A stretch of DNA of 64,000 bases, from NCBI GenBank assembly GCA_964459305.1, contig CAYWNA010000038.1, forward strand, positions 5,183-69,182. The letters are read 5' to 3'. The first letter of the stretch is position 1, and every line of letters begins with the position of its first letter. The stretch is from an uncultured Pirellulaceae bacterium (GTDB lineage Bacteria > Planctomycetota > Planctomycetia > Pirellulales > Pirellulaceae). Below, in pieces: positions 1,177-42,657 of this stretch. Position numbers and translations under genes: made by a program. The notes under the pieces are model-generated. The model made no database searches and had not been told where the DNA came from. It saw only the letters and a program-made list of their open reading frames with translations.

Positions 1177-1575
1177 CTACGGCTTAACATTGAAGCCAAG
1201 TCGCAGCAGAACTCCCTTGACTCTTTCGCTTTGTTTGCCCTGAATCTCGATGACTTCGTCCTTGAGAGTTCCACCGGCGCCGCACGCATTCTTGAGTTTG
1301 GTTAGCAGTTCCGGCAAGTCGTTGCCTTCGATTGGCAATCCCTGAATCACCGTAACGACCTTTCCCTTCTTCCGCTTTTCGACCGAAACCCTCGCAGTCT
1401 GTTCCGCTGGCGGGATCCGCGGAGGCGGAGGTGGCGGACATTGACAGTCCGCTTCGAGTTGGCCGCAGTCGTCACAACGCGGTGGTCGGTCGAATTCAGT
1501 GCCCTCGAAGAGTCGCATGTCAGCTCCCAACAACTCAGGCAACCTTGCGTCGCATGCGTATGCAATCCGGGTCAC
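1177..1575 (-). CDS. SUI1/YciH-type translation initiation factor with an N-terminal Cys-cluster extension
   Basis: C-terminal KGKVVTVIQGL...LKNACGAGGT is the SUI1 fold signature. N-term CDDCGQLEADCQC. The 40-nt same-strand overlap with the upstream gene suggests the true start is an internal Met. Confidence 0.75.
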   Translation of the reverse strand: MTRIAYACDARLPELLGADMRLFEGTEFDRPPRCDDCGQLEADCQCPPPPPPRIPPAEQTARVSVEKRKKGKVVTVIQGLPIEGNDLPELLTKLKNACGAGGTLKDEVIEIQGKQSERVKGVLLRLGFNVKP

Positions 1576-2197
1576 TGTAAGTCAACAACAGTGCTCCGCG
1601 GGCTGCATACCTTTCGAACAGATCCGCCGTGAGTTCTTCATCGTTGGGCCAGGGAAAGGCGAAAACCACATCGAAATCTCGAACCTCCATCCCTAATTCG
1701 TCGTACGCGTGGTCTGCATGCGGATCGAGAGACAGCCCACCGTCGCACTCCGCAAAGGCTCGGTCGACCAGGTCGTCAGCTCCTTGGGAGATGAAACTGC
1801 CGTTGATGAACTCGACTGGAATACCGAAATCTTCCGCTAATTTCAGCGAGGCGTCGAACAGGTCTCGGTCGATCTCGATGCCAATAGCGTCAAACCCGAC
1901 CAACGCAGCCAGTGACGCCACCACGCCCAAACCACTGCCCCATTCGCAGAACGCGTTGCCGCAGGCCACGTCAGCCTCGGCGACGGCTCGCAGTGCATGA
2001 TACACGAAGACATAATCGCTCGGCACAAAACCGCGAAAGATGCTAGGGATATTACTGATGAAATCGCGGCCCAGGTGATCGGCTTCCCGCAGAAACTCTG
2101 CCACGTTTTGGGGCAAGTCAATCGGGTCAACGGCGAGATCGACATCAGTCAGAGGCATGTCGGCGAGTGGGGTCCGAGGAATTGGCGGATGGACCAA
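1535..2197 (-). CDS. class I SAM-dependent methyltransferase
   Basis: CEWGSGLGVVA glycine-rich SAM-binding motif I, followed by acidic motif II (GIEID). Confidence 0.7.
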   Translation of the reverse strand: MVHPPIPRTPLADMPLTDVDLAVDPIDLPQNVAEFLREADHLGRDFISNIPSIFRGFVPSDYVFVYHALRAVAEADVACGNAFCEWGSGLGVVASLAALVGFDAIGIEIDRDLFDASLKLAEDFGIPVEFINGSFISQGADDLVDRAFAECDGGLSLDPHADHAYDELGMEVRDFDVVFAFPWPNDEELTADLFERYAARGALLLTYSDPDCIRMRRKVA

Positions 2198-2249
2198 TCA
2201 TAGGCAATGTGGACTGAAACACAATTGGCGATTGACCCCTGAATTCATG

Positions 2250-2376
2250 CCGTCCACGGGCAAGTCTGACCTGTAGCCGAACCCGCCAGAGTCTGGTTTT
2301 TCCTGACGCGGGGCCGAAGTCTGGGCGACTTCGGCTACATGCTAAAAATAGTCAATCCAGGCCGCAGGCGGTATGA
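2250..2376 (+). repeat. dispersed repeat family A, copy 1 (MITE-like, about 130 bp)
   Basis: Shares the caagtctgac..gtagccgaa..cgccagagt.tgg ... aagtctggcgacttcggctacatgc..aaaa..gtcaatcc.ggccgc.ggcggtat core with five other copies. Confidence 0.8.
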
Positions 2377-2664
2377 CGCAGACCGAATAAAGGTGCTCAG
2401 TAGACCCGATATGTCCTACACACAGCCCCTATATTCCTTCGGGGGCTAGGCCCGAATGTGGAAAAACGGCTAGGATACGCATCGTCCATTTCGCACGGAC
2501 AAGAAGAGCTGGTTGGATGAGGTTGGAATCGCTATCATTGGGGCACGGATGAGAGACCGGCGAGCGTGACGTCCAACGATCTCATCTGCCAACCCGTCCA
2601 ATCGAACCAGGGATCTTGGCTCTACAGTCCAACGTCGTCATTTTCAAGTACGGAGAAAACAGAC

Positions 2665-2772
2665 ATGGGTGACAAGGGAAGCAAAGACAAGGGCAAAAGG
2701 GAACAGCAGAAGAAAGCCCAGCGCACTCCAAAGGAAAAGCGGAGGCTGAAGAGAGAGAAGAAAACCAAGTAG
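2665..2772 (+). CDS. 35-aa lysine/arginine-rich basic micro-protein
   Basis: ATG preceded by GGAG at -13. MGDKGSKDKGKREQQKKAQRTPKEKRRLKREKKTK uses AAG/AAA codons consistently. 70 nt upstream of the next gene on the same strand. Confidence 0.3.
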   Translation: MGDKGSKDKGKREQQKKAQRTPKEKRRLKREKKTK

Positions 2773-2844
2773 CAGGTAATTTGGTGAATGACGCGCGTCA
2801 TTCGTAATGCTCCGAACTCTGGATCTGAGAGGAAAGTCTGAACC

Positions 2845-3624
2845 ATGGCACAGATGTTGTTCTACGAGAACGTCGTTCCCGTCAGCAAAGAACGGCACAA
2901 GGACCTAAGCATCGAACGCGTTGACTTCGATTTCGCGAGCAACGTCAACTCGGTTCCACTGACCGCGATTGAAATTCCGTTAGCGGCTCGCGAGTACACC
3001 ATCGTGTTCGCAGGTAGCGAGGAAGCCGTCGTTCCCGTTGTCGTCTTGGGCGTCGAAGGAACTGAGAATCAATACCTCGATGAGAACAAAGCCTGGAAAG
3101 CTGACTACATTCCAGCGTTTGTGCGGCGTTATCCGTTCGTCTTCTCGCAGGCGGAAGACGGTTCGCAGTTCATGCTGTGCATCGACGAAACCTGGGCAGG
3201 CTGCAATCGCGAAGGACGGGGGCAGCGTCTGTTCACCGACGAAGGCGAGCAGACGCCCTATCTGCAGAACATGTTGAAGTTCCTTGGTGACTATCAGACG
3301 CAGTTCGTGCGAACGCAGGCTTACTGCAAGAAACTCAAGGAACTTGAATTGCTGGAACCGATGCAAGCCCAGCTCACGCTGCCCGGCGGCGAGAAGCGGG
3401 CGCTCGCCGGCTTCCTCGGTGTGACCCGTGCCAGGATCAACGCACTTGAAGCAGAGAAGTTGGCAGAACTCGTCAAAACCAACGAACTTGAGTTGTGCTA
3501 CCTGCAAATGGCTTCGCTGAACAACCTGGGTTCGGTCGTGAATCGCTCGATGCCGAAGAAAGCATCGGAAGTTGAAGAATCGGAGCCGGTTGAAGAAGAA
3601 AAGAAGACAAGAAAAAAGAAGTAG
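2845..3624 (+). CDS. SapC-family-like protein (tentative family call), acidic/Lys-rich C-terminal tail
   Basis: 259-aa ORF with coherent codon usage. N-terminal FYENVVPVSKERHKDL...VPLTAIE recalls the SapC (PF07277) N-terminus from memory. Not verifiable here. Confidence 0.45.
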   Translation: MAQMLFYENVVPVSKERHKDLSIERVDFDFASNVNSVPLTAIEIPLAAREYTIVFAGSEEAVVPVVVLGVEGTENQYLDENKAWKADYIPAFVRRYPFVFSQAEDGSQFMLCIDETWAGCNREGRGQRLFTDEGEQTPYLQNMLKFLGDYQTQFVRTQAYCKKLKELELLEPMQAQLTLPGGEKRALAGFLGVTRARINALEAEKLAELVKTNELELCYLQMASLNNLGSVVNRSMPKKASEVEESEPVEEEKKTRKKK

Positions 3625-4728: not shown

Positions 4729-6183
4729 CTAGCGCACGAACATGATGCCGAGAAACCCGCCATCCAACAGCAGGCTGTTGTAGTGGATATTGGCTTGGCC
4801 CGTGCTGAGATCGGACGCATTGATTTGATCCGGCGCCAAGGCGACACCGCCGAGTCCCATTAGTCGGTAACCACCGTGGACCAGAAGGCGCTCGGTCAAC
4901 TGATAGGTGAGCACGAAATCGGCCTCGCCGACGAAAGCCACCTTCGTGTCGTTGACTTCAACCGCCGGGGCGAGGACGGAAGAATAGGTGCGTTGCTGCG
5001 CGTGGTTGCCGTAGACACCGAACTTCAGCTTAACGGAGAAGTTGAGGGGACCACCGCGATCGTACAACAGGGCGTCGCCCCCAAACTGTACGCCATAGAG
5101 GTTATTTTCCGCATCGATGTCCAGGGCATCTTTGAACGGTGCGTTCAGCTCGGAAACCAGCAGATCGTCGTTGAACGCAATGTAGCGAAAGCCCCCGAAA
5201 CACGACCACCGACAGCCATCGCTGATGCGCAGGTGGATTTCGCCGCTGTGCAAGCTGGAATCATATTCCACCAGGTATGCGGCAGGATTGACGGCTAGGT
5301 CGAAGCCGGGGCCGTTCAGTTGCAGATTACCCACCGCCGCTGCTTGCCCATCCCATGACGGAATACCCAGGTAGGCAATTTCCCAACCGAATCCACTGGC
5401 ATCATGGTGCGTAACGCCAACCTGGAGCCCCAATTTGTAAGTGAAGTCGAGGTCCGAGGAACTGATTACGCTGCCGCCCGTGGCCTGATCCGTGATGAGT
5501 GACAAACCATCCGCGTTCCTTCGCCGCAGACCCACCAGGTCCACATCCCAAATCCAACCAGAACAACGCCAAGTGAACCAATCGTCCTTAAGGTCGATTT
5601 TCGACGGTTCGGCGGGGGCGTTTCCGGTGGTTTTCGAAGGTGTCGATGGCTTGTCGGATGGTGAGGCTCGGTCGACGGTCGCAGACGACTGCTTTGCCGG
5701 TCGGGGCATGTCGAACATCGAGGCACCGAACGTGGTTGCGGGCTGCGAAACGCTTTGACCGTTGGGCCGCTCGCCAGGCCAAACCAACTGGCTCCGGCTT
5801 TTCGGCGCAAATGTCTTGGTTGTACGAGGCTGGAAGTGAGTCGACCCTCCCGCGCGACGGTAGTTCGTTTGATCGTAGATGGGTACGGCGGTCGGCCCCG
5901 TTTTCGGATATGGCGTCCCCCATGGCACGGCCGCGCCGGATCGCTCCGGTGCCACAGCACGCCCTTGAGGCGCGACAACCTTGGTCGTTGGGTAGCTCGT
6001 TGTCTTGCGTACGGCTGTTGGCGCGTAGCCCCATGGCTGCCAATCCGCTTGCTGGCGTTCCCCCATCCGTGTGTCCGCGCGGGGTCTCTGATTCGGCATG
6101 TCCCACGGCTGGGCGCCGGCCGTATCCAGCAGGCCCAGCACAAGTGCGATCATCATGGTTGAGCGAGCCATCATCACAACCAC
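4729..6183 (-). CDS. putative outer-membrane beta-barrel protein, BBP7-like, with Pro-rich N-terminal region
   Basis: Signal peptide MMIALVLGLLDTAGA, Pro/Thr-rich low-complexity segment, C-terminal alternating beta-strand pattern. Paralogous to 18114..19556 (NNLYGVQFGGD vs NHLYGAQAGGD; GEADFVLTYQ...GGYRLMGLGGVALA vs GEVDLMATYQ...GGYMLLYSEGVALG). Confidence 0.55.
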   Translation of the reverse strand: MVVMMARSTMMIALVLGLLDTAGAQPWDMPNQRPRADTRMGERQQADWQPWGYAPTAVRKTTSYPTTKVVAPQGRAVAPERSGAAVPWGTPYPKTGPTAVPIYDQTNYRRAGGSTHFQPRTTKTFAPKSRSQLVWPGERPNGQSVSQPATTFGASMFDMPRPAKQSSATVDRASPSDKPSTPSKTTGNAPAEPSKIDLKDDWFTWRCSGWIWDVDLVGLRRRNADGLSLITDQATGGSVISSSDLDFTYKLGLQVGVTHHDASGFGWEIAYLGIPSWDGQAAAVGNLQLNGPGFDLAVNPAAYLVEYDSSLHSGEIHLRISDGCRWSCFGGFRYIAFNDDLLVSELNAPFKDALDIDAENNLYGVQFGGDALLYDRGGPLNFSVKLKFGVYGNHAQQRTYSSVLAPAVEVNDTKVAFVGEADFVLTYQLTERLLVHGGYRLMGLGGVALAPDQINASDLSTGQANIHYNSLLLDGGFLGIMFVR

Positions 6184-14058: not shown

Positions 14059-15168
14059 TTAGACGCCAAAACGCGACTGATCGACATGGCCGGTGTGGAA
14101 AGGTGACCGATGTTCGGTTCCTCGAGGCGGCAATGCATAGGGAGGTATGGGAACCATGTCGCCTTCCTTCGTCTGATCGCTGGGGACGTGTTCGTCCTCG
14201 ACGCCAGACTTCTTGCCGACCGACTTTCGTGCCTGCCTGCTGGGGATTGTGATCTCGACACCAATCGGAAGCAGTCGGGGATCGGACAGTACGTCTGGAT
14301 TTGCGCGAAAGATGTCTAGATACAGACGGGGATCGCCAAAGTACGTTTGCGCCAGCTTGGGCAGAGTATCGTTGTCGACGATACGGTGTCGATGCGGATT
14401 GTACGCCGTCTTCGCTGGTGCGTCGTCCTTCTTCGGCATCAACGCTTTCTTAGCGGATGACGGAACGTCCGCATTCAACTCGTCACGGCTGGGCGGCCAT
14501 GTGCTGGACGGCCAGTCGTCGTCGAGTTGTGTCAAAGGGAACAGAGATGATCTGTCGGTCGTCTTCGATCCGCGCGTCACGTCTGATGCGACATCTGCAC
14601 GAGGTGTAGCAGTCATGCTGGTCGCGCCGTCGTCTGCGCGGGGCTTATTTGCCTTGGGCGTTTGCGCCTCAGCCTCGGCGGCCAAACGCTGGTTCTCAAG
14701 TCCACCCGACTTCTTGCCTTGCCGCGGTTCTTTGCGCGTAGTGGGCCTCTTCGTACTATTCTGTTTTTCCCGACTGGAAGGTCTTTTCTTGCTCGGCCAT
14801 TGCTGAACGGATTCCTGCTCCTCCGCATCCGCTCGTTTCAGGTACGCGCTCGCGTCCTCCGTTGTTTCTGAGTTATCGATCCGCGGTAGTTTCTCGACCG
14901 TCGATTCCCGTTTTACCTGGGGCCAATCGAAATCCGCGGGTCTTGCGTTCACCTGTTCGGCGTCGATTATGGCAGCCAACGGTACGTGACTAGGAGAAGT
15001 GGAAGCGCGCGGTTGACTATCGGGATGTTGCGACAGCACCCTCTCATCCACCTGGGCGGCATTTTCAGTAGTTTGAGGAGCAGATGATCTGAACTGCGAT
15101 GCCGCGTGGTAACCAGCGACCAGCACGGCTATCACCAACAGATACTTGACAATGTGTCGCATGGACAT
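14059..15168 (-). CDS. LysM domain-containing membrane-anchored low-complexity protein
   Basis: N-terminal signal/anchor. C-terminal HRIVDNDTLPKLAQTYFGDPRLYLDIFRANPDVLSDPRLLPIGVEITIP matches the LysM fold pattern. Confidence 0.55.
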   Translation of the reverse strand: MSMRHIVKYLLVIAVLVAGYHAASQFRSSAPQTTENAAQVDERVLSQHPDSQPRASTSPSHVPLAAIIDAEQVNARPADFDWPQVKRESTVEKLPRIDNSETTEDASAYLKRADAEEQESVQQWPSKKRPSSREKQNSTKRPTTRKEPRQGKKSGGLENQRLAAEAEAQTPKANKPRADDGATSMTATPRADVASDVTRGSKTTDRSSLFPLTQLDDDWPSSTWPPSRDELNADVPSSAKKALMPKKDDAPAKTAYNPHRHRIVDNDTLPKLAQTYFGDPRLYLDIFRANPDVLSDPRLLPIGVEITIPSRQARKSVGKKSGVEDEHVPSDQTKEGDMVPIPPYALPPRGTEHRSPFHTGHVDQSRFGV

Positions 15169-18113: not shown

Positions 18114-19556
18114 CTACCACATGTACTCAACACCAAACGTCCAGCCGTACCAAACAGCGTTGCCACTCGTGTCGACGGTAACGAGTCTTTCCGCCGGCGT
18201 CGCCCCCACCGGGACACCAAGTGCCGTAGGCGGAGCCGGATTGAAGTTCTCCGTTCCCAAAGCTACCCCCTCGCTGTACAAAAGCATGTATCCGCCTCGG
18301 ATCGTGAATTTGGGACTGACTTGGTACGTTGCCATTAGATCCACTTCGCCGACGAAAGACGCTTGGCTGCTGTGGGCCTCTTCGAATTGCCCTAGCGGAA
18401 TCGAGGTGGCCACGATTGACGTCTGCTGCCGCGCATCGTTACCGAAGAGACCAGCCTTGAGCTCGCCACCGACGTTCAGACCAGGCAGGAGGCACATCCA
18501 AAGGTCGCCCCCGGCTTGGGCTCCGTACAAATGGTTGACGGCCGTCACCTCGTAGTTCATGAACGGTGCGGGAGGTGTGTTCGGCGGGCTGCTGTTTAGA
18601 GGGGCGAGCGTGTTGTATTTCAAGTTGTCGCGTAGCTGAAAGTACCGGAAGCCTAACAGGTAGGACCCCTGAAATAGGCAGGTAGGGCCGACCCAGCGTC
18701 GTCGGTAGTTCGCTTCGATGGTGTTCATGCTGGTCTTGAACGTGAGTTCATGGAAGTCTGCCCGGTCGACTTCAACATACCCGAAGAACGGCACACCTCG
18801 CGGATTGGTACCAAACTCACTGAACGGAGACCAGAGCCTCGTCGTCGTATCCGTGACCGAGGCACCAGCGGACCAGTGAGTCATACCCAGATAGGTCACC
18901 TCGACATTGCTGCCAGGCCCCGTCTGGAAGGTGCCCGTCACGCGCAACCCTGGTTCGGTCCCCAACTCCAGGTCATCCGAGTCGAGGACAATGTTCGGAG
19001 GATCGGTCGGGGGCGAAGGGAAGCCCAACGACGAGAAAGGAACGTTCTCAGACACTTGGTCGCGTTCCAGGAACACGGCTTCGGCGTGAACGTCAAACCA
19101 GTGTGGGGCGCAGCAGCCTCCTTCGCTGTATGGCGCGAGCAGGCCCAGAATACGCAACAGGCCGCCCGCCAACCTACCCCCATGGTATCCTCCGTACGAG
19201 TAGTACTCGGCGTCCGCCTGCTGGTCCAACAGCTCTTCCAGTGTATCGGCTTCCAATGGGTCCGGGGGTTCCGGTGTCTCCGGTTGCGGTTCTGGTTGTA
19301 GGTAATTCGCCGGCACGACCTGTGAGAATCCGGCTGGTGCCACTTGAGACCAACCAGGCTGGTACGTCATCCCAGGTTGGTACATCATCGGCGGCAACGC
19401 CGCACTGCCCGCTGCAGATGGGTGCCATGATAGTGGCCGCGGCGGGTAGAAATAGGAAGGTTGACCGTGGACGGTCTGCCCACGCACGTCGACCTCGGAG
19501 GTAGAGAAAGCCAAGACGGCGACAATGGTGATCAACCAAGCCCGTTCAGTTGTCAT
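18114..19556 (-). CDS. putative outer-membrane beta-barrel protein, BBP7-like (paralog of 4729..6183)
   Basis: Signal peptide, Pro-rich N-region (PPDPLEADTLEELLDQ), C-terminal barrel ending ...GWTFGVEYMW. Confidence 0.55.
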   Translation of the reverse strand: MTTERAWLITIVAVLAFSTSEVDVRGQTVHGQPSYFYPPRPLSWHPSAAGSAALPPMMYQPGMTYQPGWSQVAPAGFSQVVPANYLQPEPQPETPEPPDPLEADTLEELLDQQADAEYYSYGGYHGGRLAGGLLRILGLLAPYSEGGCCAPHWFDVHAEAVFLERDQVSENVPFSSLGFPSPPTDPPNIVLDSDDLELGTEPGLRVTGTFQTGPGSNVEVTYLGMTHWSAGASVTDTTTRLWSPFSEFGTNPRGVPFFGYVEVDRADFHELTFKTSMNTIEANYRRRWVGPTCLFQGSYLLGFRYFQLRDNLKYNTLAPLNSSPPNTPPAPFMNYEVTAVNHLYGAQAGGDLWMCLLPGLNVGGELKAGLFGNDARQQTSIVATSIPLGQFEEAHSSQASFVGEVDLMATYQVSPKFTIRGGYMLLYSEGVALGTENFNPAPPTALGVPVGATPAERLVTVDTSGNAVWYGWTFGVEYMW

Positions 19557-19849: not shown

Positions 19850-21979
19850 TCAGAATAGCGTCTGTTGGGGATCGTGGTTGTCTGAGAGAGCGGCCAGCAG
19901 TTCTTCGGGATCGCCATCATCGTCTTTGATGATCAGCACGTTGTCGCCAAAATCTTCCTCGTCGATTTTTCGCCCGCGGTCGTCAAACTTGACGTCGGCC
20001 TCGGCCGTTTTGCGTCTGGCTACCTTGACCAACTGCAGGTACAGCCCTTCGCGGTCTGCACCGTTGATCGTGCTTACAGCCGTGGCCACCTCTCTGAGAT
20101 AACGCAGGAACACGGAGCGGCGCTCGCCCTCTTGCTTGACCTTCTTTCGGCGTCTCAGATACATCCCCAGTTTACGGCCAACGGCCTGGAGTGCCAAACG
20201 CAACTCCTTTTGGATCTCTGGATAACCTGCAATGGCTTCCTTCGATTCGCTGGTGAAAGGAACCCAGACGCTGGCCATGTGTACCATCACCGTCACTGGG
20301 CCGCTAGGCAACGATCCGCGAGACTGGCTGAGACCGTACGACCGCCAGTTCATTTTCATCACGGCCTCGGTTATCGCGCAATCACGCTGTTTGAACTGCA
20401 GGGGCACCCGATTGGCATAGCGAAATACCTGCATCGACTGACCTGCTGAGAGGTTAACGTTGCGCATCGCCTCATGCAGCCGTTTGATATCGGCATGTTT
20501 CAACTTGGCGGGCGATTGGCGCGTCCCAAACTTACCCTCCTGCAGGATTCGGTCCGCGGCCTCGGCGCCTAAACCGTCAAACGTGTTGATGATGAACTGC
20601 CGTAGCGTGCGGACATCACTTTCGCGAATCAGGTCGGTGAGCAGCTCGAGCGATACCTTCTGAGCGGTGTTCGTTCCACCGTAGGCCAAACCGACTTCGA
20701 TCTGAAATGGATTGCCCCGGTATACGGCCGGCGGCCGGGTGGCCGCACAATAGAATTCGCCAGGCACGACGTAACGCAAGCCCTTGAGCAGCAATTCCTC
20801 GCCGATGGGCGAAATACAGTCGGTGGTCGGCGCCTTGATTCTTGTCTTTTGGATTGCGCGATACAGGGAATCGGCTTCTTCGCGGCCAATCCGTTTGGTC
20901 GAAGCGCGCGTGCTTACACCAGCAGCTTCGCAGATTCGCCGGGCCACGGCCGGACTGACGCGGGAAAACGAGTCGGTCAGGAACTGAGACAGCGTGGTGG
21001 ATTTTGTCTCTTTGAGCATCGTCACCAAGCGTCCCAATTCGACGCCGTACGGATGTGGCTTGATTTCCTTCGGCTCGTCGGGCAACACAGTGGTCGAGCG
21101 ATGATAGGTCTTCTGGTTGCCTTCCGGATCGATGTAGTTGAGCGTGACGTGGGGATTGGCGATCGCCGTCTGCTCCAAGTAATCATCAACGCTCCCGCGC
21201 CCTCGCTGATAGCGGCCCTCTAACTCAATGGTCACGCGCGTGCCGCTTCTGACGGGTTGCGGTGGCTTGTCGCCTTCAGGATCATACTCCCCGACCCATT
21301 CGATGCCATGTTTCTCAATGTATCGCCGCCCGGCATCGTTGGGCGGTATGTCGACCCCATCGCCCTTGCCGTTGAGGATTTCGGGAACGTTGTTCTTGGT
21401 GTTGATTTGTATCTCGTAGTAGTGTGCCGGCTTGCGGATAGAGACCTTGGAAATGATCTTCACCGGCTTGCCCGTCGTTAGCATCCCGTACATGCCGGCG
21501 GCACTGATGCCGATCCCCTGCTGGCCGCGACTCATCCTCAGTCGGTGGAACTTTGATCCGTACAGCAGTTTTCCGAAAATCAACGGGATCTGTCGCTTCA
21601 CGATGCCGGGGCCATTGTCCTGGATGCCGATCTTGTAGCGGCTATCCCCGGTCTGCTCGATATGCACCCAAATCTCCGGCGTGATGCCAGCCTCTTCGCA
21701 GGCGTCCAGCGAATTGTCCACGGCTTCTTTGACCGTCGTCAGAAGCGCTTTTCGAGGGTTGTCAAATCCCAGTAAGTGACGATTCTTTGCGAAAAACTCA
21801 CTGACGGAAATGTCTCGTTGCTTGGACGCCATGGATTGGGCGGTCGCGCGACGACGCGCTTTGCCGTTTCCGGATGAATCGACTCTAATGCTGGCCTCGT
21901 CAGATGTCTGATTTCTCGACAATATGGGACTCCTTTGCCCGCTCGGAGGACAACACTCAGAGGACAATAAAGTCGACAA
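19850..21979 (-). CDS. top6B: DNA topoisomerase VI subunit B (type IIB topoisomerase GHKL ATPase + transducer)
   Basis: SVSEFFAKNRHLLGFDNPRKALLTTVKEAVDNSLDACEEAGITPEI...IQDNGPGI...GKLLYGSKF (Bergerat fold N/G1/G2 boxes). Transducer RGNPFQIEVGLAYGG, RYANRVPLQF, ASVWVPFTSESKEAIA all match archaeal Top6B. Confidence 0.85.
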   Translation of the reverse strand: MSTLLSSECCPPSGQRSPILSRNQTSDEASIRVDSSGNGKARRRATAQSMASKQRDISVSEFFAKNRHLLGFDNPRKALLTTVKEAVDNSLDACEEAGITPEIWVHIEQTGDSRYKIGIQDNGPGIVKRQIPLIFGKLLYGSKFHRLRMSRGQQGIGISAAGMYGMLTTGKPVKIISKVSIRKPAHYYEIQINTKNNVPEILNGKGDGVDIPPNDAGRRYIEKHGIEWVGEYDPEGDKPPQPVRSGTRVTIELEGRYQRGRGSVDDYLEQTAIANPHVTLNYIDPEGNQKTYHRSTTVLPDEPKEIKPHPYGVELGRLVTMLKETKSTTLSQFLTDSFSRVSPAVARRICEAAGVSTRASTKRIGREEADSLYRAIQKTRIKAPTTDCISPIGEELLLKGLRYVVPGEFYCAATRPPAVYRGNPFQIEVGLAYGGTNTAQKVSLELLTDLIRESDVRTLRQFIINTFDGLGAEAADRILQEGKFGTRQSPAKLKHADIKRLHEAMRNVNLSAGQSMQVFRYANRVPLQFKQRDCAITEAVMKMNWRSYGLSQSRGSLPSGPVTVMVHMASVWVPFTSESKEAIAGYPEIQKELRLALQAVGRKLGMYLRRRKKVKQEGERRSVFLRYLREVATAVSTINGADREGLYLQLVKVARRKTAEADVKFDDRGRKIDEEDFGDNVLIIKDDDGDPEELLAALSDNHDPQQTLF

Positions 21980-22134
21980 AGAGTGTAAAACGTTAGGGAT
22001 TATAACGATTTCAACTCCTTCTTCACAGCCGAGTTGCGCTTCACAGACGGACGATTGCCGACAATTGCCTCAAGCGGCAGATAAAGATTCACCCGTACCA
22101 GCGCTACCAACCGACTTACCTTGTATCAAGAGTA

Positions 22135-22614
22135 ATGAGTATGGGAAGGAGAGATTCGATGTTGCACAGCTTGACACGATCTACGTTTGCCGCAGTGGCG
22201 CTTGTGGCCGTGGTCGGTTCAAACATGTGGTGTGGTCGGCAAGCCGTTGCCGACGATCAGGAGTCGGCGGGGGAGCCGTACGTGAGTGTTGCTGCGTGCG
22301 AAAACGGCCAATTGTGCCGGCCGTGGGAATACGGAAATCCGGCGCTGTTCTACAACTTCTACGCGCCCAACCACTGTGGCGGGGTTCCGGCGGAGTTGTA
22401 CATCGCCCCGCGTCCGGTTCCACCGCTGGTTGGACACACGTACATAACCTATCAACCGCTGATGCCCCACGAGTTCATGTATCCGCACTACCGGACGTAC
22501 CGGAAATGGCACAACGACGGGCGCGGCATGACGCGGACCCGAGCGATTTGGTATAGCAACCCGGTGGCCAGTGCGTTGAAGGGCGCGAGAAATGCCATCC
22601 GCCTGCCTCGCTGA
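22135..22614 (+). CDS. secreted hypothetical protein (Tyr/Pro-rich)
   Basis: Signal peptide STFAAVALVAVVGS. No known motif. Confidence 0.45.
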   Translation: MSMGRRDSMLHSLTRSTFAAVALVAVVGSNMWCGRQAVADDQESAGEPYVSVAACENGQLCRPWEYGNPALFYNFYAPNHCGGVPAELYIAPRPVPPLVGHTYITYQPLMPHEFMYPHYRTYRKWHNDGRGMTRTRAIWYSNPVASALKGARNAIRLPR

Positions 22615-22670: not shown

Positions 22671-23360
22671 ATGAAACGAACAAACCTTTTGATCCTATAT
22701 GCGGCATCGATCGCCCTGGTTGCGCTTTTCATGCAGGGGGCGTTCGCAAATGGAAAGCCCTGTCCGTGCGACACGCCGTCTGAACCAAAGGCCGCAAAGA
22801 CGACGCGGCCAGTGAAGGATGGTGGCCGCAAGTGCGTCCGCAGCGCTGGCTCGAAAGGCAAATGCGCCTCCTCCGCGCACGGCTCCAAGATCCTGGGGCG
22901 ACGAGCGGCCGCATGCAACTGCGGCGGTGCGGGAGCGTGTGCAGAATGCGGCCCCGCCCGTGGAATGTACTGTCGAGCCGCCGGGGCCATCGGCTACGGC
23001 GTAGCCGGCATGCGGGGCGCGATGCAGAGCGGCCAGCCACTTGTCGATCCATGGGCAAAGGCCGACTGGATGGCTGCCCAACAGGCGGCCACGAGATCAT
23101 GGCACGCGGGCTATTATCACACGCAGTGGGGAGTTCCCCTGGCGTTGATGGCCCCGCCACACGCGCGGACGCAAACGCGATGGGGCTGGGGAGTGGCCCA
23201 ATCCACAATGTTGCCGCTGTATCACCAGTACAAACGACCTTATCCTGGAGCCGTCACGGGCGACGGAACGGGAGCCGGGTACGGCCCGCTGCAGCCCACG
23301 CCAAGGTGGCCCAGCCATACCGATCAGTTCGGCGTCTATTATGTTCGCGGTCCGTGGTAA
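22671..23360 (+). CDS. secreted Cys-rich hypothetical protein
   Basis: Signal peptide LLILYAASIALVALFMQGAFA. CPCD...CNCGGAGACAECG Cys cluster. Confidence 0.45.
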   Translation: MKRTNLLILYAASIALVALFMQGAFANGKPCPCDTPSEPKAAKTTRPVKDGGRKCVRSAGSKGKCASSAHGSKILGRRAAACNCGGAGACAECGPARGMYCRAAGAIGYGVAGMRGAMQSGQPLVDPWAKADWMAAQQAATRSWHAGYYHTQWGVPLALMAPPHARTQTRWGWGVAQSTMLPLYHQYKRPYPGAVTGDGTGAGYGPLQPTPRWPSHTDQFGVYYVRGPW

Positions 23361-40779: not shown

Positions 40780-42657
40780 ATGTCACGAGGCAGTAAAGCA
40801 GCCGTATACTGGTATGTCCATATAGTTCTGTTAGCGGGTGCCGTGATCGCGACGGGCCAAACCGCGTTGGCGCAAGCCAAACCGAAATACGATGTTATGC
40901 CCGTTCCACAGATCATTCTTGACGCCGACCGCAAAATCGACGTGAAAATGGCAAAGGAAGAGAAAGCAGCCATCCAGGAAGCGAAGACGACGAAGCGTGG
41001 GCTTGAGATGCTGGTGGCCAATGTCCTGCGCAACTCGCCGGATGTCTCCCTGGACGACGAGAAAACGAAGAAGAATTTCGACGGTTGGTACACGCAGTAC
41101 TATTTTGCGATCCTCACGCATCCAGAACACCTGTCCAAGTGGACCGAAACGCGTCGAAAGTTCCTCAAAATACTCACCCCTTCCAATGTACCGCCAAAAG
41201 TCCACGAACACTTGGTGGATGACCTCGCGATTCCAACGATGCTGACCATCGCCAAGGGAAACTATCACCCGGTGGCACGCTACAATGCCACGCTTTTTAT
41301 CGGCAGTTTGAATGACCATGAAGCTGTGCTGATCGGCGAGAAGAAGCAGTTGCCGGTTCCCTCGATGCTCGCTTTGGCGAGACTGATCGGAGAGTACGCG
41401 GACGCCAACCAGATCGATGCGGTACGCGTCGCTGCACTGGTTGGAATTCTGAGACATGTGAAAATTGACAGTTACTTGCCCTCCGAGAACCGGCGATTGG
41501 CGGGCAACAACGCGGAGACGCGAATCGTGGATCTCGCGACCAATCTCATCAGCCAGAAAGACGCGCCGGAAGGTCGCTCGCAGGGAGGTCACGATTGGAT
41601 GCGGCGACAGGCCATCGAGATCGCGGGGTTCTTGGGCAGCGTCGGCCAGAACGGGAAAGTCGTCTCCGCACTGGACGCCCTGGTAGCCGACGAAACGACC
41701 CCGGTGTCGCTTCGATGTAGCGCCGCCGAAGCCCTGGGGCGGCTGAACTATCCGGCAAACACGAACATGAATGTTGCGGATACCGCAAAGAAGTTCGGTG
41801 CTGTTGCCGTGTATGCTTGCCACAAAGAACTGATGCGGGTCGAGGACCAGCAGAAGCTGGAAGAAGAGGAAAAAGGAACGGCAGGGGGCGCCAGCGCGTT
41901 TGGAGGACAGTCCTTCGGTGGTGCTCTCGGCGGAACGTCGTCCGGAGCGTACGGCGCCGCCTTTGGCGGAAAGGCCGCCGCCGGTCCTCTCGCTTACCGA
42001 ATCGCTATGACCCGACGGCGCGTCAAGTATCAAACCCTGTTGGTCAAGACGGGTCTGGTTGGGGTGAAACAAGATGCGAAAAGACCGCGCCCCAGGTTCG
42101 GGAGTGCAGACGAAAGTGCGGATGCCGCCGCGGAGGAGACCAAGAAAAAGGAACGTGGGATACTGGCGCTGGCCAAATCTCCGGAAGATCAAGAATACGT
42201 CAAGAAGGTGGTCGACGGCATCGATGCCATTGTTGCCGTGACGGACAATTCGAAGGTGGAAGATCTAACGTCGCTGGTCACGGATATTCGAAACAAGGTC
42301 AACGAATTGGAGCAGAGTTGCGAGATCGTCGTGGACATGGGCGACTCGGAAGGCGACGTAGTCGACATAGAAGACCTGCTGGCAAATCCGGCGGAACCGA
42401 TGGACATCGAAGCGGGCATGGAATTGCCCGTCGGCCCACCAAGTGAACCGCCGACCGGCCCGTCGGGAAAAACTCCGGCGGATCCGGGAGTCAAACCGCC
42501 TACCAAGCCAGCGGTGACTGCGCCCGCCAAGCAAGCAGCGGATTCGCCCGCCAAGCCAGCGGTAACTGCGCCCGCCAAGCCGCCAGCGCCTGTCAAACCG
42601 CCCGCAAAGGCCCCAACTAATCCCGCCGGCGCGAAAAATCCCGCCAATAAGCCTTAG
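40780..42657 (+). CDS. secreted alpha-helical (HEAT-like) hypothetical protein with Pro/Ala/Lys-rich tandem-repeat tail
   Basis: Signal peptide HIVLLAGAVIATGQTALAQA. Tail PAVTAPAKQAADSPAK/PAVTAPAKPPAPVKPPAKAP. Confidence 0.55.
   Translation: MSRGSKAAVYWYVHIVLLAGAVIATGQTALAQAKPKYDVMPVPQIILDADRKIDVKMAKEEKAAIQEAKTTKRGLEMLVANVLRNSPDVSLDDEKTKKNFDGWYTQYYFAILTHPEHLSKWTETRRKFLKILTPSNVPPKVHEHLVDDLAIPTMLTIAKGNYHPVARYNATLFIGSLNDHEAVLIGEKKQLPVPSMLALARLIGEYADANQIDAVRVAALVGILRHVKIDSYLPSENRRLAGNNAETRIVDLATNLISQKDAPEGRSQGGHDWMRRQAIEIAGFLGSVGQNGKVVSALDALVADETTPVSLRCSAAEALGRLNYPANTNMNVADTAKKFGAVAVYACHKELMRVEDQQKLEEEEKGTAGGASAFGGQSFGGALGGTSSGAYGAAFGGKAAAGPLAYRIAMTRRRVKYQTLLVKTGLVGVKQDAKRPRPRFGSADESADAAAEETKKKERGILALAKSPEDQEYVKKVVDGIDAIVAVTDNSKVEDLTSLVTDIRNKVNELEQSCEIVVDMGDSEGDVVDIEDLLANPAEPMDIEAGMELPVGPPSEPPTGPSGKTPADPGVKPPTKPAVTAPAKQAADSPAKPAVTAPAKPPAPVKPPAKAPTNPAGAKNPANKP

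What the first reader, a model, noticed from the sequence alone, without database searches (positions are those of the whole stretch)
19850..21979. Full-length topoisomerase VI B subunit with no A (Spo11-like) subunit gene anywhere in the 64-kb window
The 709-aa protein matches archaeal Top6B across the GHKL ATPase, H2TH and transducer domains (conserved strings quoted in the feature). Topo VI is an A2B2 enzyme and, where it occurs in bacteria, the two genes are usually adjacent. Here the flanks are a BBP7 barrel gene and two secreted hypothetical proteins, with 290-bp and 155-bp non-coding flanks. Possibilities are a distantly encoded Top6A, a B subunit working with another partner, or an MORC-like stand-alone GHKL with a topo-VI-type transducer. 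The C-terminal about 120 residues (Lys/Arg/Asp/Glu-rich, ...DDDGDPEELLAALSDNHDPQQTLF) extend beyond archaeal Top6B.
Basis: partly seen in the sequence, partly recalled or inferred. Interest (0 to 1): 0.55.

Follow-up and report, generated by a model that had tools for sequence, protein, structure and literature searches.

The report
Topo VI B gene, partner elsewhere
This is an ordinary, intact topoisomerase VI B-subunit gene of a marine planctomycete whose A-subunit partner gene has moved to another place in the genome, so it is not an orphan enzyme.

Summary
Window 19850..21979 (-) encodes a full-length Top6B, and no Top6A/Spo11 gene exists in the 64 kb (tblastn in six frames, Pfam scans of 35 ORFs).

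In about 49 related Pirellulales genomes top6A lies directly downstream of top6B. The window belongs to one of two clades in which that linkage was lost. In the sister species, a stand-alone top6A lies in the same MAG (JADHUC010000018.1; top6B on JADHUC010000104.1). It also lies in the same assembly at the same coverage (42.34x against 42.37x).

For the window's own species, the orthologous stand-alone top6A (P0174) has the same A2M/TPR neighbour. It co-occurs with the window's exact top6B locus in two assemblies, matches the window's composition, and mirrors the Top6B tree (r = 0.755).

Both genes are catalytically intact and under strong purifying selection (dN/dS about 0.05). Conserved upstream genes show that top6B kept the ancestral locus and top6A moved.

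The insertions and the C-terminal tail are traits of all Pirellulales Top6B proteins. One insertion is a duplicated H2TH module.

Verdict: known enzyme with unlinked subunit genes; low interest.

The parts
19850..21922 (-). top6B coding sequence (690 aa from the TTG at 21922). The longest ORF extends to 21979 (709 aa), and JGI calls start at the ATG at 21832 (660 aa).
   Evidence: P0001 is 100% identical. An AAGGAG lies at 21935-21930, 7 nt before the TTG at 21922.
21080..21832 (-). GHKL (Bergerat) ATPase domain, residues about 50-300 in 709-aa numbering. It contains E85, N89, D121 (G1 box) and the G2 box SRGQQGIGISAA at residue 150. The KGRR-loop equivalent is R259-G260-R261. It includes lineage-specific insert 1 (residues 203-244).
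   Evidence: Residue mapping to M. mazei E44 and KGRR186-189 uses PMC5922973.
20825..21073 (-). Canonical H2TH domain (residues 303-385).
   Evidence: Pfam NFACT_N/H2TH-type hit at residues 303-378. Aligned to 2q2e_B residues 172-366.
20453..20665 (-). Insert 2 (residues 439-509): an internal duplicate of the H2TH module inserted at the start of the transducer domain. It is present in all Pirellulales Top6B proteins examined.
   Evidence: hhalign probability 98.1%, E = 1.1e-13. Smith-Waterman score 77 against 23.9 +/- 4.4 for 1000 shuffles. Present in linked and unlinked clades. It probably corresponds to the 'unique alpha-helical bundle' reported for Pirellula staleyi in PMC11302465.
20057..20452 (-). 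Transducer domain core and stalk helix (residues 510-641), with N523, WRSY 545-548 (the WKxY motif), the switch lysine K580 and the stalk arginine R602.
   Evidence: PF09239 at 4.2e-53. Alignments, residue checks, functional residues.
19853..20056 (-). Charged, acidic C-terminal tail (residues 642-709). It does not align to archaeal Top6B but is conserved at 38-84% identity across the Pirellulales Top6B proteins compared.
21999..22004 (-). A perfect TATAAT hexamer in the 155-212 nt region between top6B and the divergent small gene. It is a candidate -10 element only.
   Evidence: Sequence read. The consensus scan found no full -35/-10 pair here.
22135..22614 (+). Small signal-peptide protein (159 aa; the public call is 151 aa), divergent from top6B. 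It is a conserved neighbour of top6B across Pirellulales.
   Evidence: No hit in Pfam or NCBIfam.
22671..23360 (+). Second small signal-peptide protein (229 aa), also a conserved neighbour of top6B.
18114..19556 (-). BBP7-family gene occupying the position where top6A lies in operon-linked relatives.

Best explanation
The gene encodes the ATPase (B) subunit of a canonical A2B2 DNA topoisomerase VI of a marine Pirellulaceae planctomycete. The ancestral arrangement in Pirellulales is hyp229 <- hyp159 <- | -> top6B -> top6A. In the lineage that includes the window, top6A left this operon and now lies next to a giant A2M/TPR gene elsewhere in the genome. top6B stayed in the ancestral locus, and a BBP7 gene now follows it. 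The two subunits are therefore made from separate transcription units and assemble in trans, as they do in plants.

Shown here: gene identity, intact motifs, loss of linkage in two clades, purifying selection on both genes, and a partner gene in the same MAG and at the same coverage in the sister species.

Inferred: that contig L008, which carries Top6A P0174, belongs to the same genome as the window; and that the enzyme is active.
For: Identity:
- Top6B equivalog models are passed, and the best solved relative is 2q2e_B at E = 1.6e-143.
- Functional residues are intact: E85, N89, D121, the G2 box, N523 and K580. RGR 259-261, WRSY 545-548 and R602 correspond to the M. mazei KGRR loop, the WKxY motif and R457, which are essential for strand passage in M. 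mazei.

Linkage in relatives:
- Of 85 related loci, top6A is directly downstream of top6B in 49. It is absent in 16 that have at least 2.5 kb of flank on both sides, and undecidable in 20.
- The unlinked loci form two monophyletic clades. One contains the window.
- Relatives at 93% and 84% identity share the window's synteny.

Partner gene in the sister species:
- Top6A P0244 is on JADHUC010000018.1, and the unlinked top6B is on JADHUC010000104.1 of the same MAG, GCA_016784735.1.
- In assembly ERZ24794672 the two contigs have coverage 42.336 and 42.372.

Partner gene in the window's species:
- Top6A P0174 is stand-alone and carries TP6A_N, Topo_VI_alpha and Toprim domains.
- It co-occurs with the window's exact top6B-BBP7 locus in ENA ERZ23498660 and JGI 3300007510.
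- Its A2M/TPR neighbour is orthologous to that of P0244: 84% identity over 1275 aa, with spacers of 185 and 184 nt.
- GC is 0.587 for both, and the tetranucleotide correlation is 0.971, inside the window's internal range of 0.968-0.980.
- The mirror-tree correlation is r = 0.755, against 0.73 +/- 0.21 for true operon pairs and -0.07 on average for mismatched pairs.

Selection:
- dN/dS for top6B is 0.03-0.085 in the unlinked clade and 0.05-0.08 in linked clades.
- dN/dS for the stand-alone top6A is 0.048, and its IRGLYY, HVEKD and LDNDPWG motifs are intact.

Which gene moved:
- The two small upstream genes are conserved next to top6B in about 74 of 78 assessable loci, whether or not top6A follows.
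Against: - The window's own assembly accession could not be retrieved. Its species is not among the GTDB representatives scanned. Assigning P0174 to the very same genome therefore rests on co-occurrence, composition, an orthologous context and co-phylogeny, not on a shared assembly accession.
- Tetranucleotide composition does not separate congeneric species: L005, L006 and L022 score as high as L008.
- In the mirror-tree test, 6 of 43 mismatched pairs reached the observed correlation.
- MAG membership is itself an inference from binning.
- No expression or biochemical data exist.
Confidence: 0.9

Rival explanations
1. True orphan: the genome has lost Top6A. Top6B then works alone or with a different nuclease or partner, as a MORC-like or otherwise repurposed GHKL ATPase.
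For: No top6A lies within 64 kb. The gene has its own upstream region and a candidate -10 element. Lineage-specific insertions and an acidic tail exist.
Against: A stand-alone top6A with an orthologous context is found in the same samples and, for the sister species, in the same MAG at the same coverage. The insertions and the tail also occur in operon-linked relatives. The stalk, WKxY and KGRR elements and the switch lysine, which serve the holoenzyme, are conserved. dN/dS matches that of linked clades.
Confidence: 0.04
2. P0174 belongs to another co-occurring planctomycete, and the window organism uses a more divergent A subunit that was not detected.
For: Several close relatives co-occur in these samples. 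For example, Top6B proteins at 93% and 100% identity are both present in JGI 3300009320. Composition cannot separate congeners.
Against: The Top6A tree around P0174 has neighbours at 97-98% and then 86-88%. This parallels the Top6B tree around the window, at 91-93% and then 81-85%. P0174 and the window's Top6B share the same nearest linked relative, L026. Exact-sequence co-occurrence is seen in two assemblies. Even under this reading a Top6A partner would still exist, so the finding would remain ordinary.
Confidence: 0.05
3. top6B is a decaying remnant left behind after loss of the operon.
For: The neighbouring partner gene has been lost.
Against: The reading frame is full-length and all catalytic motifs are intact. 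dN/dS is 0.044 against the 93% relative at dS = 0.85. The gene is retained across a whole clade.
Confidence: 0.01

Closest known systems
Methanosarcina mazei topoisomerase VI B subunit (PDB 2Q2E chain B)
   Same: The GHKL, H2TH and transducer architecture aligns over residues 46-639 at E = 1.6e-143. E44, the switch lysine, the WKxY motif, the stalk arginine and most of the KGRR loop are conserved.
   Different: The window protein lacks the Ig-like C-terminal domain of M. mazei and has a 68-aa acidic tail instead. It has a 42-aa insert in the GHKL domain and a 71-aa duplicated H2TH module in the transducer. K399 is Asn, and KGRR is RGR-G.
Pirellulales Topo VI (Pirellula staleyi Top6B, described in PMC11302465)
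   Same: Same bacterial PVC Topo VI lineage, derived from Euryarchaeota by horizontal transfer. It has the same extra helical bundle next to the transducer and no M. mazei-type C-terminal domain. Complete cultured genomes of the order (Adhaeretor mobilis, Lacipirellula limnantheis) carry top6B-top6A together.
   Different: In the window's clade the two genes are no longer adjacent. The paper does not discuss gene linkage, and the passages I read do not call the bundle an H2TH duplicate.
Plant topoisomerase VI (Arabidopsis TOP6B with SPO11-3); from general knowledge
   Same: The A and B subunits are encoded at separate loci and assemble in trans.
   Different: Eukaryotic, with accessory subunits and different structural elaborations of TOP6B.
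Topo VIII and Mini-A, type IIB relatives on mobile elements (PMC7671362, PMC4117785)
   Same: Type IIB family members found in bacteria, sometimes with atypical gene organisation.
   Different: Those are divergent and are plasmid- or provirus-borne. The window gene passes the canonical Top6B equivalog models and sits among chromosomal housekeeping genes such as RecG, UDG and M16 peptidases.

Membership tests
DNA topoisomerase VI subunit B (Top6B) | Score above the curated equivalog cutoffs. | tested here: met
   NF003218 scores 674.1 bits against a cutoff of 274. TIGR01052 scores 502.4 against 380.7.
DNA topoisomerase VI subunit B (Top6B) | GHKL/Bergerat ATP-binding motifs: N-box Glu and Asn, G1 box DxGxG, and G2 box. 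| tested here: met
   E85, N89, D121-N-G-P-G and SRGQQGIGISAA at residue 150. These align to S. shibatae E38, N42 and D76, and to M. mazei E44.
DNA topoisomerase VI subunit B (Top6B) | An H2TH domain between the GHKL and transducer domains. This domain is absent from Top6B-like and MORC proteins. | tested here: met
   Residues 303-385 align to the H2TH region of 2q2e_B and give a Pfam H2TH-type hit. A second, duplicated copy lies at residues 439-509.
DNA topoisomerase VI subunit B (Top6B) | A transducer domain with a switch lysine and a long stalk helix that contacts Top6A. | tested here: met
   PF09239 at 4.2e-53. K580 corresponds to S. shibatae K427 and M. mazei K435, and R602 to M. mazei R457. 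The alignment runs to residue 641. No structure was predicted here.
DNA topoisomerase VI subunit B (Top6B) | DNA-sensing elements required for strand passage: the KGRR loop and the WKxY motif. | tested here: met
   WRSY at 545-548 is a conservative K-to-R change. KGRR becomes R259-G260-R261-G262, keeping two of three basic residues. The K399 equivalent is Asn.
DNA topoisomerase VI holoenzyme (A2B2) | A Top6A partner (5Y-CAP Tyr plus Toprim) encoded in the same genome, tested in the sister species. | tested here: met
   GCA_016784735.1 carries top6A on JADHUC010000018.1 and the unlinked top6B on JADHUC010000104.1. In ERZ24794672 the two contigs have coverage 42.34 and 42.37.
DNA topoisomerase VI holoenzyme (A2B2) | A Top6A partner encoded in the window's own genome. 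| tested here: inconclusive
   P0174 co-occurs with the window's locus in two assemblies and has an orthologous locus context, matching composition and co-phylogeny. No shared assembly accession or closed genome could be obtained.
DNA topoisomerase VI holoenzyme (A2B2) | ATP-dependent decatenation and relaxation by the assembled heterotetramer. | not testable with these tools
   This requires biochemistry.
MORC-like or other stand-alone GHKL ATPase | A GHKL domain without an H2TH domain or a Topo VI-type transducer, and no Top6A partner. | tested here: not met
   Both the H2TH and the Topo-VIb transducer are present. PF13589 gives only a weak hit (6.5e-7) that overlaps the HATPase_c match. A partner gene exists in the lineage.
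Topo VIII / Mini-A (mobile-element type IIB) | Divergent sequence, a plasmid or provirus context, and an A-B fusion or a lone mini-A. | tested here: not met
   The sequence passes the canonical equivalog models. The context is chromosomal housekeeping genes, and no mobile-element genes were seen in the scanned ORFs.

The most novel reading that the evidence does not exclude
Linkage between top6B and top6A was lost twice independently in Pirellulales. All members of the order also share a duplicated H2TH module, which PMC11302465 describes for P. staleyi as protruding into the enzyme cavity. In addition, two small secreted proteins are kept next to top6B in almost every species. Together these could mean that planctomycete Topo VI is regulated or used in a lineage-specific way. 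For example, the B subunit might be expressed independently of A and have an additional A-independent role, or the enzyme's handling of the transported DNA segment might be altered. My evidence does not exclude this, but nothing specifically points to it.
Probability: 0.05. Interest if true: 0.45.

Novelty: already known. Interest (0 to 1): 0.12.

Why it matters
It matters little for biology at large. The finding is a canonical bacterial Topo VI whose two genes are no longer adjacent.

Three points have practical value:
- Absence of a partner gene in a 64-kb window is weak evidence for an orphan subunit, especially in Planctomycetota, where two whole clades have split this operon.
- NCBI names these Top6A proteins "DNA topoisomerase IV subunit A". 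This can hide the partner from annotation-based checks.
- The Pirellulales-specific helical bundle in Top6B appears to be a duplicated H2TH module. That gives a concrete hypothesis for anyone studying DNA sensing by type IIB topoisomerases.

Tried and rejected
1. I guessed that top6B was the gene that moved, because an A2M-like gene lies near the operon in L003 and next to the stand-alone top6A in L008. This was rejected. The two A2M genes are not orthologous (27% over 197 aa), and the conserved upstream gene pair shows that top6B stayed in place.

2. I tried to obtain the window's own NCBI assembly accession. Two look-ups of P0001 and one of the BBP7 protein returned only Logan, ENA and JGI contigs.

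3. The single genome-contig scan did not return the window's species. The best hits were 83-85% identical.

4. Top6A proteins P0206 and P0219 proved to be further stand-alone top6A genes, next to a DinB-type polymerase. They belong to MAGs (CDLUIP01, CDLUKZ01) for which I hold no top6B contig.

5. P0279 is reported on a 7128-nt contig, the same length as L025. tblastn shows it is not on L025, so this was a coincidence.

6. Matching NCBI protein accession blocks between Top6A and Top6B entries gave no pair.

7. Tetranucleotide composition agrees with the assignment but does not discriminate between congeners.

8. An apparent dN/dS of 2.3 for L007 came from the fragment coordinates used. With the called gene coordinates it is 0.085.

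9. The consensus promoter and terminator scan around the gene found nothing above shuffled expectation. Rfam and tRNA scans of the window found nothing.

10. The two small upstream proteins are not paralogues of each other (hhalign probability 0.2%) and match no Pfam or NCBIfam family.

11. No structure prediction was run. The published AlphaFold description of P. staleyi Top6B already covers the fold.
Full report
**1. What is there**

The minus-strand ORF at 19850..21979 exists: 709 aa counted from a TTG. Public gene calls use 690 aa (P0001, 100% identical) or 660 aa (P0002). The 690-aa start is the TTG at 21922. An AAGGAG lies 7 nt upstream of it, and a perfect TATAAT lies at 22004-21999.

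The protein passes both curated Top6B equivalog models. NF003218 scores 674 bits against a cutoff of 274, and TIGR01052 scores 502 against 380.7. Pfam finds the Topo-VIb transducer (4.2e-53), HATPase_c and an H2TH-type stretch. The best solved relative is M. mazei Top6B (2q2e_B, E = 1.6e-143), aligned over residues 46-202, 245-438 and 510-639.

**2. Is the A subunit really absent from the window?**

Yes. Relatives on long contigs gave me lineage-appropriate Top6A proteins (L003, L004). tblastn of these against all six frames of the window gave nothing better than E = 0.19-0.47. There is no remnant in the 293-nt spacer between top6B and the BBP7 gene.

Pfam scans of 35 ORFs show an ordinary planctomycete chromosomal neighbourhood. 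It includes RecG, UDG, M16 peptidases, a DUF1559/N-methyl protein, two BBP7 genes, histidine kinases, a sigma-54 activator and an RTX/PKD protein. No TP6A_N, Toprim or 5Y-CAP domain appears. The factual core of the finding is confirmed.

**3. Is the protein intact?**

All diagnostic residues are present:

| Element | M. mazei / S. shibatae | Window protein |
|---|---|---|
| Catalytic Glu | E44 / E38 | E85 |
| Mg-binding Asn | - / N42 | N89 |
| G1 box Asp | - / D76 | D121 |
| G2 box | - | SRGQQGIGISAA at 150 |
| Transducer Asn | - / N375 | N523 |
| Switch lysine | K435 / K427 | K580 |
| KGRR loop | KGRR186-189 | R259-G260-R261 |
| WKxY motif | W400-K401-x-Y403 | W545-R546-S547-Y548 |
| Stalk arginine | R457 | R602 |

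The last three are the DNA-sensing elements that Wendorff and Berger showed to be essential for strand passage (PMC5922973). They serve the holoenzyme, which argues against a repurposed stand-alone ATPase.

**4. The extra segments are lineage traits**

Insert 1 (203-244), insert 2 (439-509) and the charged tail (642-709) occur in every Pirellulales Top6B I compared, whether or not top6A follows the gene.

Insert 2 is an internal duplicate of the H2TH module. hhalign gives 98.1% probability and E = 1.1e-13. The Smith-Waterman score is 77 against 23.9 +/- 4.4 for shuffles. [quoted passage not shown]

The tail is 68 aa, not about 120. The same paper reports that the bacterial Top6B proteins it modelled lack the M. 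mazei C-terminal domain.

**5. Gene arrangement in relatives**

The family is very large in Planctomycetota (8000 hits). A scan of GTDB species representatives returned 80 loci. Together with five loci fetched earlier, this gives 85 loci:

| Arrangement | Loci |
|---|---|
| top6A directly downstream of top6B | 49 |
| No top6A despite at least 2.5 kb of flank on both sides | 16 |
| Flanks too short to decide | 20 |

The linked set includes the complete genomes of Adhaeretor mobilis and Lacipirellula limnantheis.

A neighbour-joining tree rooted on M. mazei places the unlinked loci in two clean clades nested among linked ones:
- Clade 1 contains the window, L005-L007 and L020-L025. It is sister to the linked group L003, L004 and L026-L028.
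- Clade 2 contains L067-L099, mostly from freshwater.

Relatives at 93% and 84% identity share the window's exact synteny: radical-SAM gene, two small genes, top6B, BBP7.

**6. Where is the partner?**

Top6A P0174 (382 aa; TP6A_N, Topo_VI_alpha and Toprim domains) is a stand-alone gene. It lies between a 2820-aa A2M/TPR gene and a methyltransferase gene. It occurs in the same assemblies as the window's exact top6B-BBP7 locus:
- ENA ERZ23498660: scaffold_19117 carries top6A, and scaffold_31743 carries top6B.
- JGI 3300007510: Ga0105013_1002954 carries top6A, and Ga0105013_1040010 carries top6B.

P0174 is also binned in NCBI MAG GCA_964617665.1.

Composition agrees but is not discriminating on its own. 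GC is 0.587 for both, and the tetranucleotide correlation is 0.971, within the window's internal range of 0.968-0.980.

Co-phylogeny holds. Across 43 operon-linked genomes, the window-Top6B / P0174-Top6A pair gives a mirror-tree correlation of 0.755. True pairs give 0.73 +/- 0.21, and mismatched pairs average -0.07. Both proteins have L026 as their nearest linked relative.

The decisive evidence comes from the sister species:
- Top6A P0244 (87% identical to P0174) lies on JADHUC010000018.1. This is the same MAG (GCA_016784735.1, Pirellulaceae bacterium BS150m-G36) whose contig JADHUC010000104.1 carries the unlinked, window-syntenic top6B.
- In assembly ERZ24794672 the top6A contig has coverage 42.336 and the top6B contig 42.372.
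- The A2M/TPR gene upstream of top6A is orthologous between the two species. It is 84% identical over 1275 aa, with spacers of 185 and 184 nt. The relocated top6A locus is therefore inherited within the clade.

**7. Selection**

For top6B in the unlinked clade, dN/dS is 0.03-0.085. The least saturated comparison gives 0.044 at dS = 0.85. Linked clades give 0.05-0.08. For the stand-alone top6A, dN/dS is 0.048, and the IRGLYY, HVEKD and LDNDPWG motifs are intact.

**8. Which gene moved?**

The two small signal-peptide genes upstream of top6B (159 and 229 aa) have homologues in the same divergent position in about 74 of 78 assessable loci, in linked and unlinked genomes alike. Downstream genes vary. 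So top6B kept its ancestral locus and top6A was the gene that relocated.

**9. Verdict**

The residual uncertainty is that the window's assembly accession could not be retrieved and its species is not among the GTDB representatives. Assigning P0174 to the very same genome is therefore a strong inference and not a direct observation.

Confidence in unlinked subunits of an ordinary Topo VI is 0.9. Novelty: already known. Interest: low.

Noticed in passing
window 22135-22614 (+) and 22671-23360 (+); same position in L003-L007 and L020-L099: Two small signal-peptide proteins with no Pfam or NCBIfam family lie divergently upstream of top6B in about 74 of 78 assessable Pirellulales loci, although the downstream genes are not conserved. 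Each has a strongly conserved C-terminal core, for example ..FYNfY...AqlY.sPrPvPp.VGHTy.TYqP.MPHE.. and ..HQF.RpYPG...QFGVyyvRGPW. They are not paralogues of each other. Why they stay next to Topo VI is unexplained; a shared divergent promoter region is one possibility.
   Followed up: partly
window 20453-20665 (-), Top6B residues 439-509: The Pirellulales-specific insertion at the start of the transducer domain is an internal duplication of the H2TH module (hhalign probability 98.1%, E = 1.1e-13). It probably corresponds to the helical bundle reported for P. staleyi, but the passages I read do not describe that bundle as an H2TH duplicate.
   Followed up: partly
protein hits P0126, P0150, P0163, P0230, P0244, P0259: NCBI names these TP6A_N/Toprim Top6A proteins 'DNA topoisomerase IV subunit A'. 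The name is misleading and could hide the Topo VI A subunit from checks based on annotation.
   Followed up: no
L067, L069, L071-L074, L077-L079, L082-L085, L090-L092, L094-L096, L098, L099: A second, independent clade of Pirellulales, mostly from freshwater or engineered systems, also has top6B without an adjacent top6A. Whether its top6A is elsewhere in those genomes was not checked.
   Followed up: partly
L033, L067, L069, L072, L077, L078; proteins P0115, P0226, P0229: Contigs or proteins that carry planctomycete-type Topo VI genes at 70-80% identity are labelled Nitrosopumilus sp., Candidatus Kuenenia, Myxococcales or Terriglobia. These are probably mis-binned contigs or wrong taxonomic labels.
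   Followed up: no
L004 12309-13468; also L039, L041, L075, L076: In several long-read MAGs, top6A is split into two ORFs or aligns only in part (for example 198 + 203 aa in L004). These are probably frameshift errors from long-read assembly and not pseudogenes.
   Followed up: no
L105-L114 about 5152-6074; L100 and L101 about 1446-3143: The genes downstream of the stand-alone top6A differ between species. The sister species has three small genes including an RHH_1 (toxin-antitoxin-like) gene. The window species has a 525-aa methyltransferase. Two other MAGs have a DinB-type (IMS) polymerase.
   Followed up: no
window 4729-6183 (-), 14059-15168 (-), 40780-42657 (+): The window holds a second BBP7-family gene, a 369-aa protein with only a weak LysM-like match (NCBIfam 5.7e-06, below cutoff), and a 625-aa protein with no family in Pfam or NCBIfam.
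   Followed up: no
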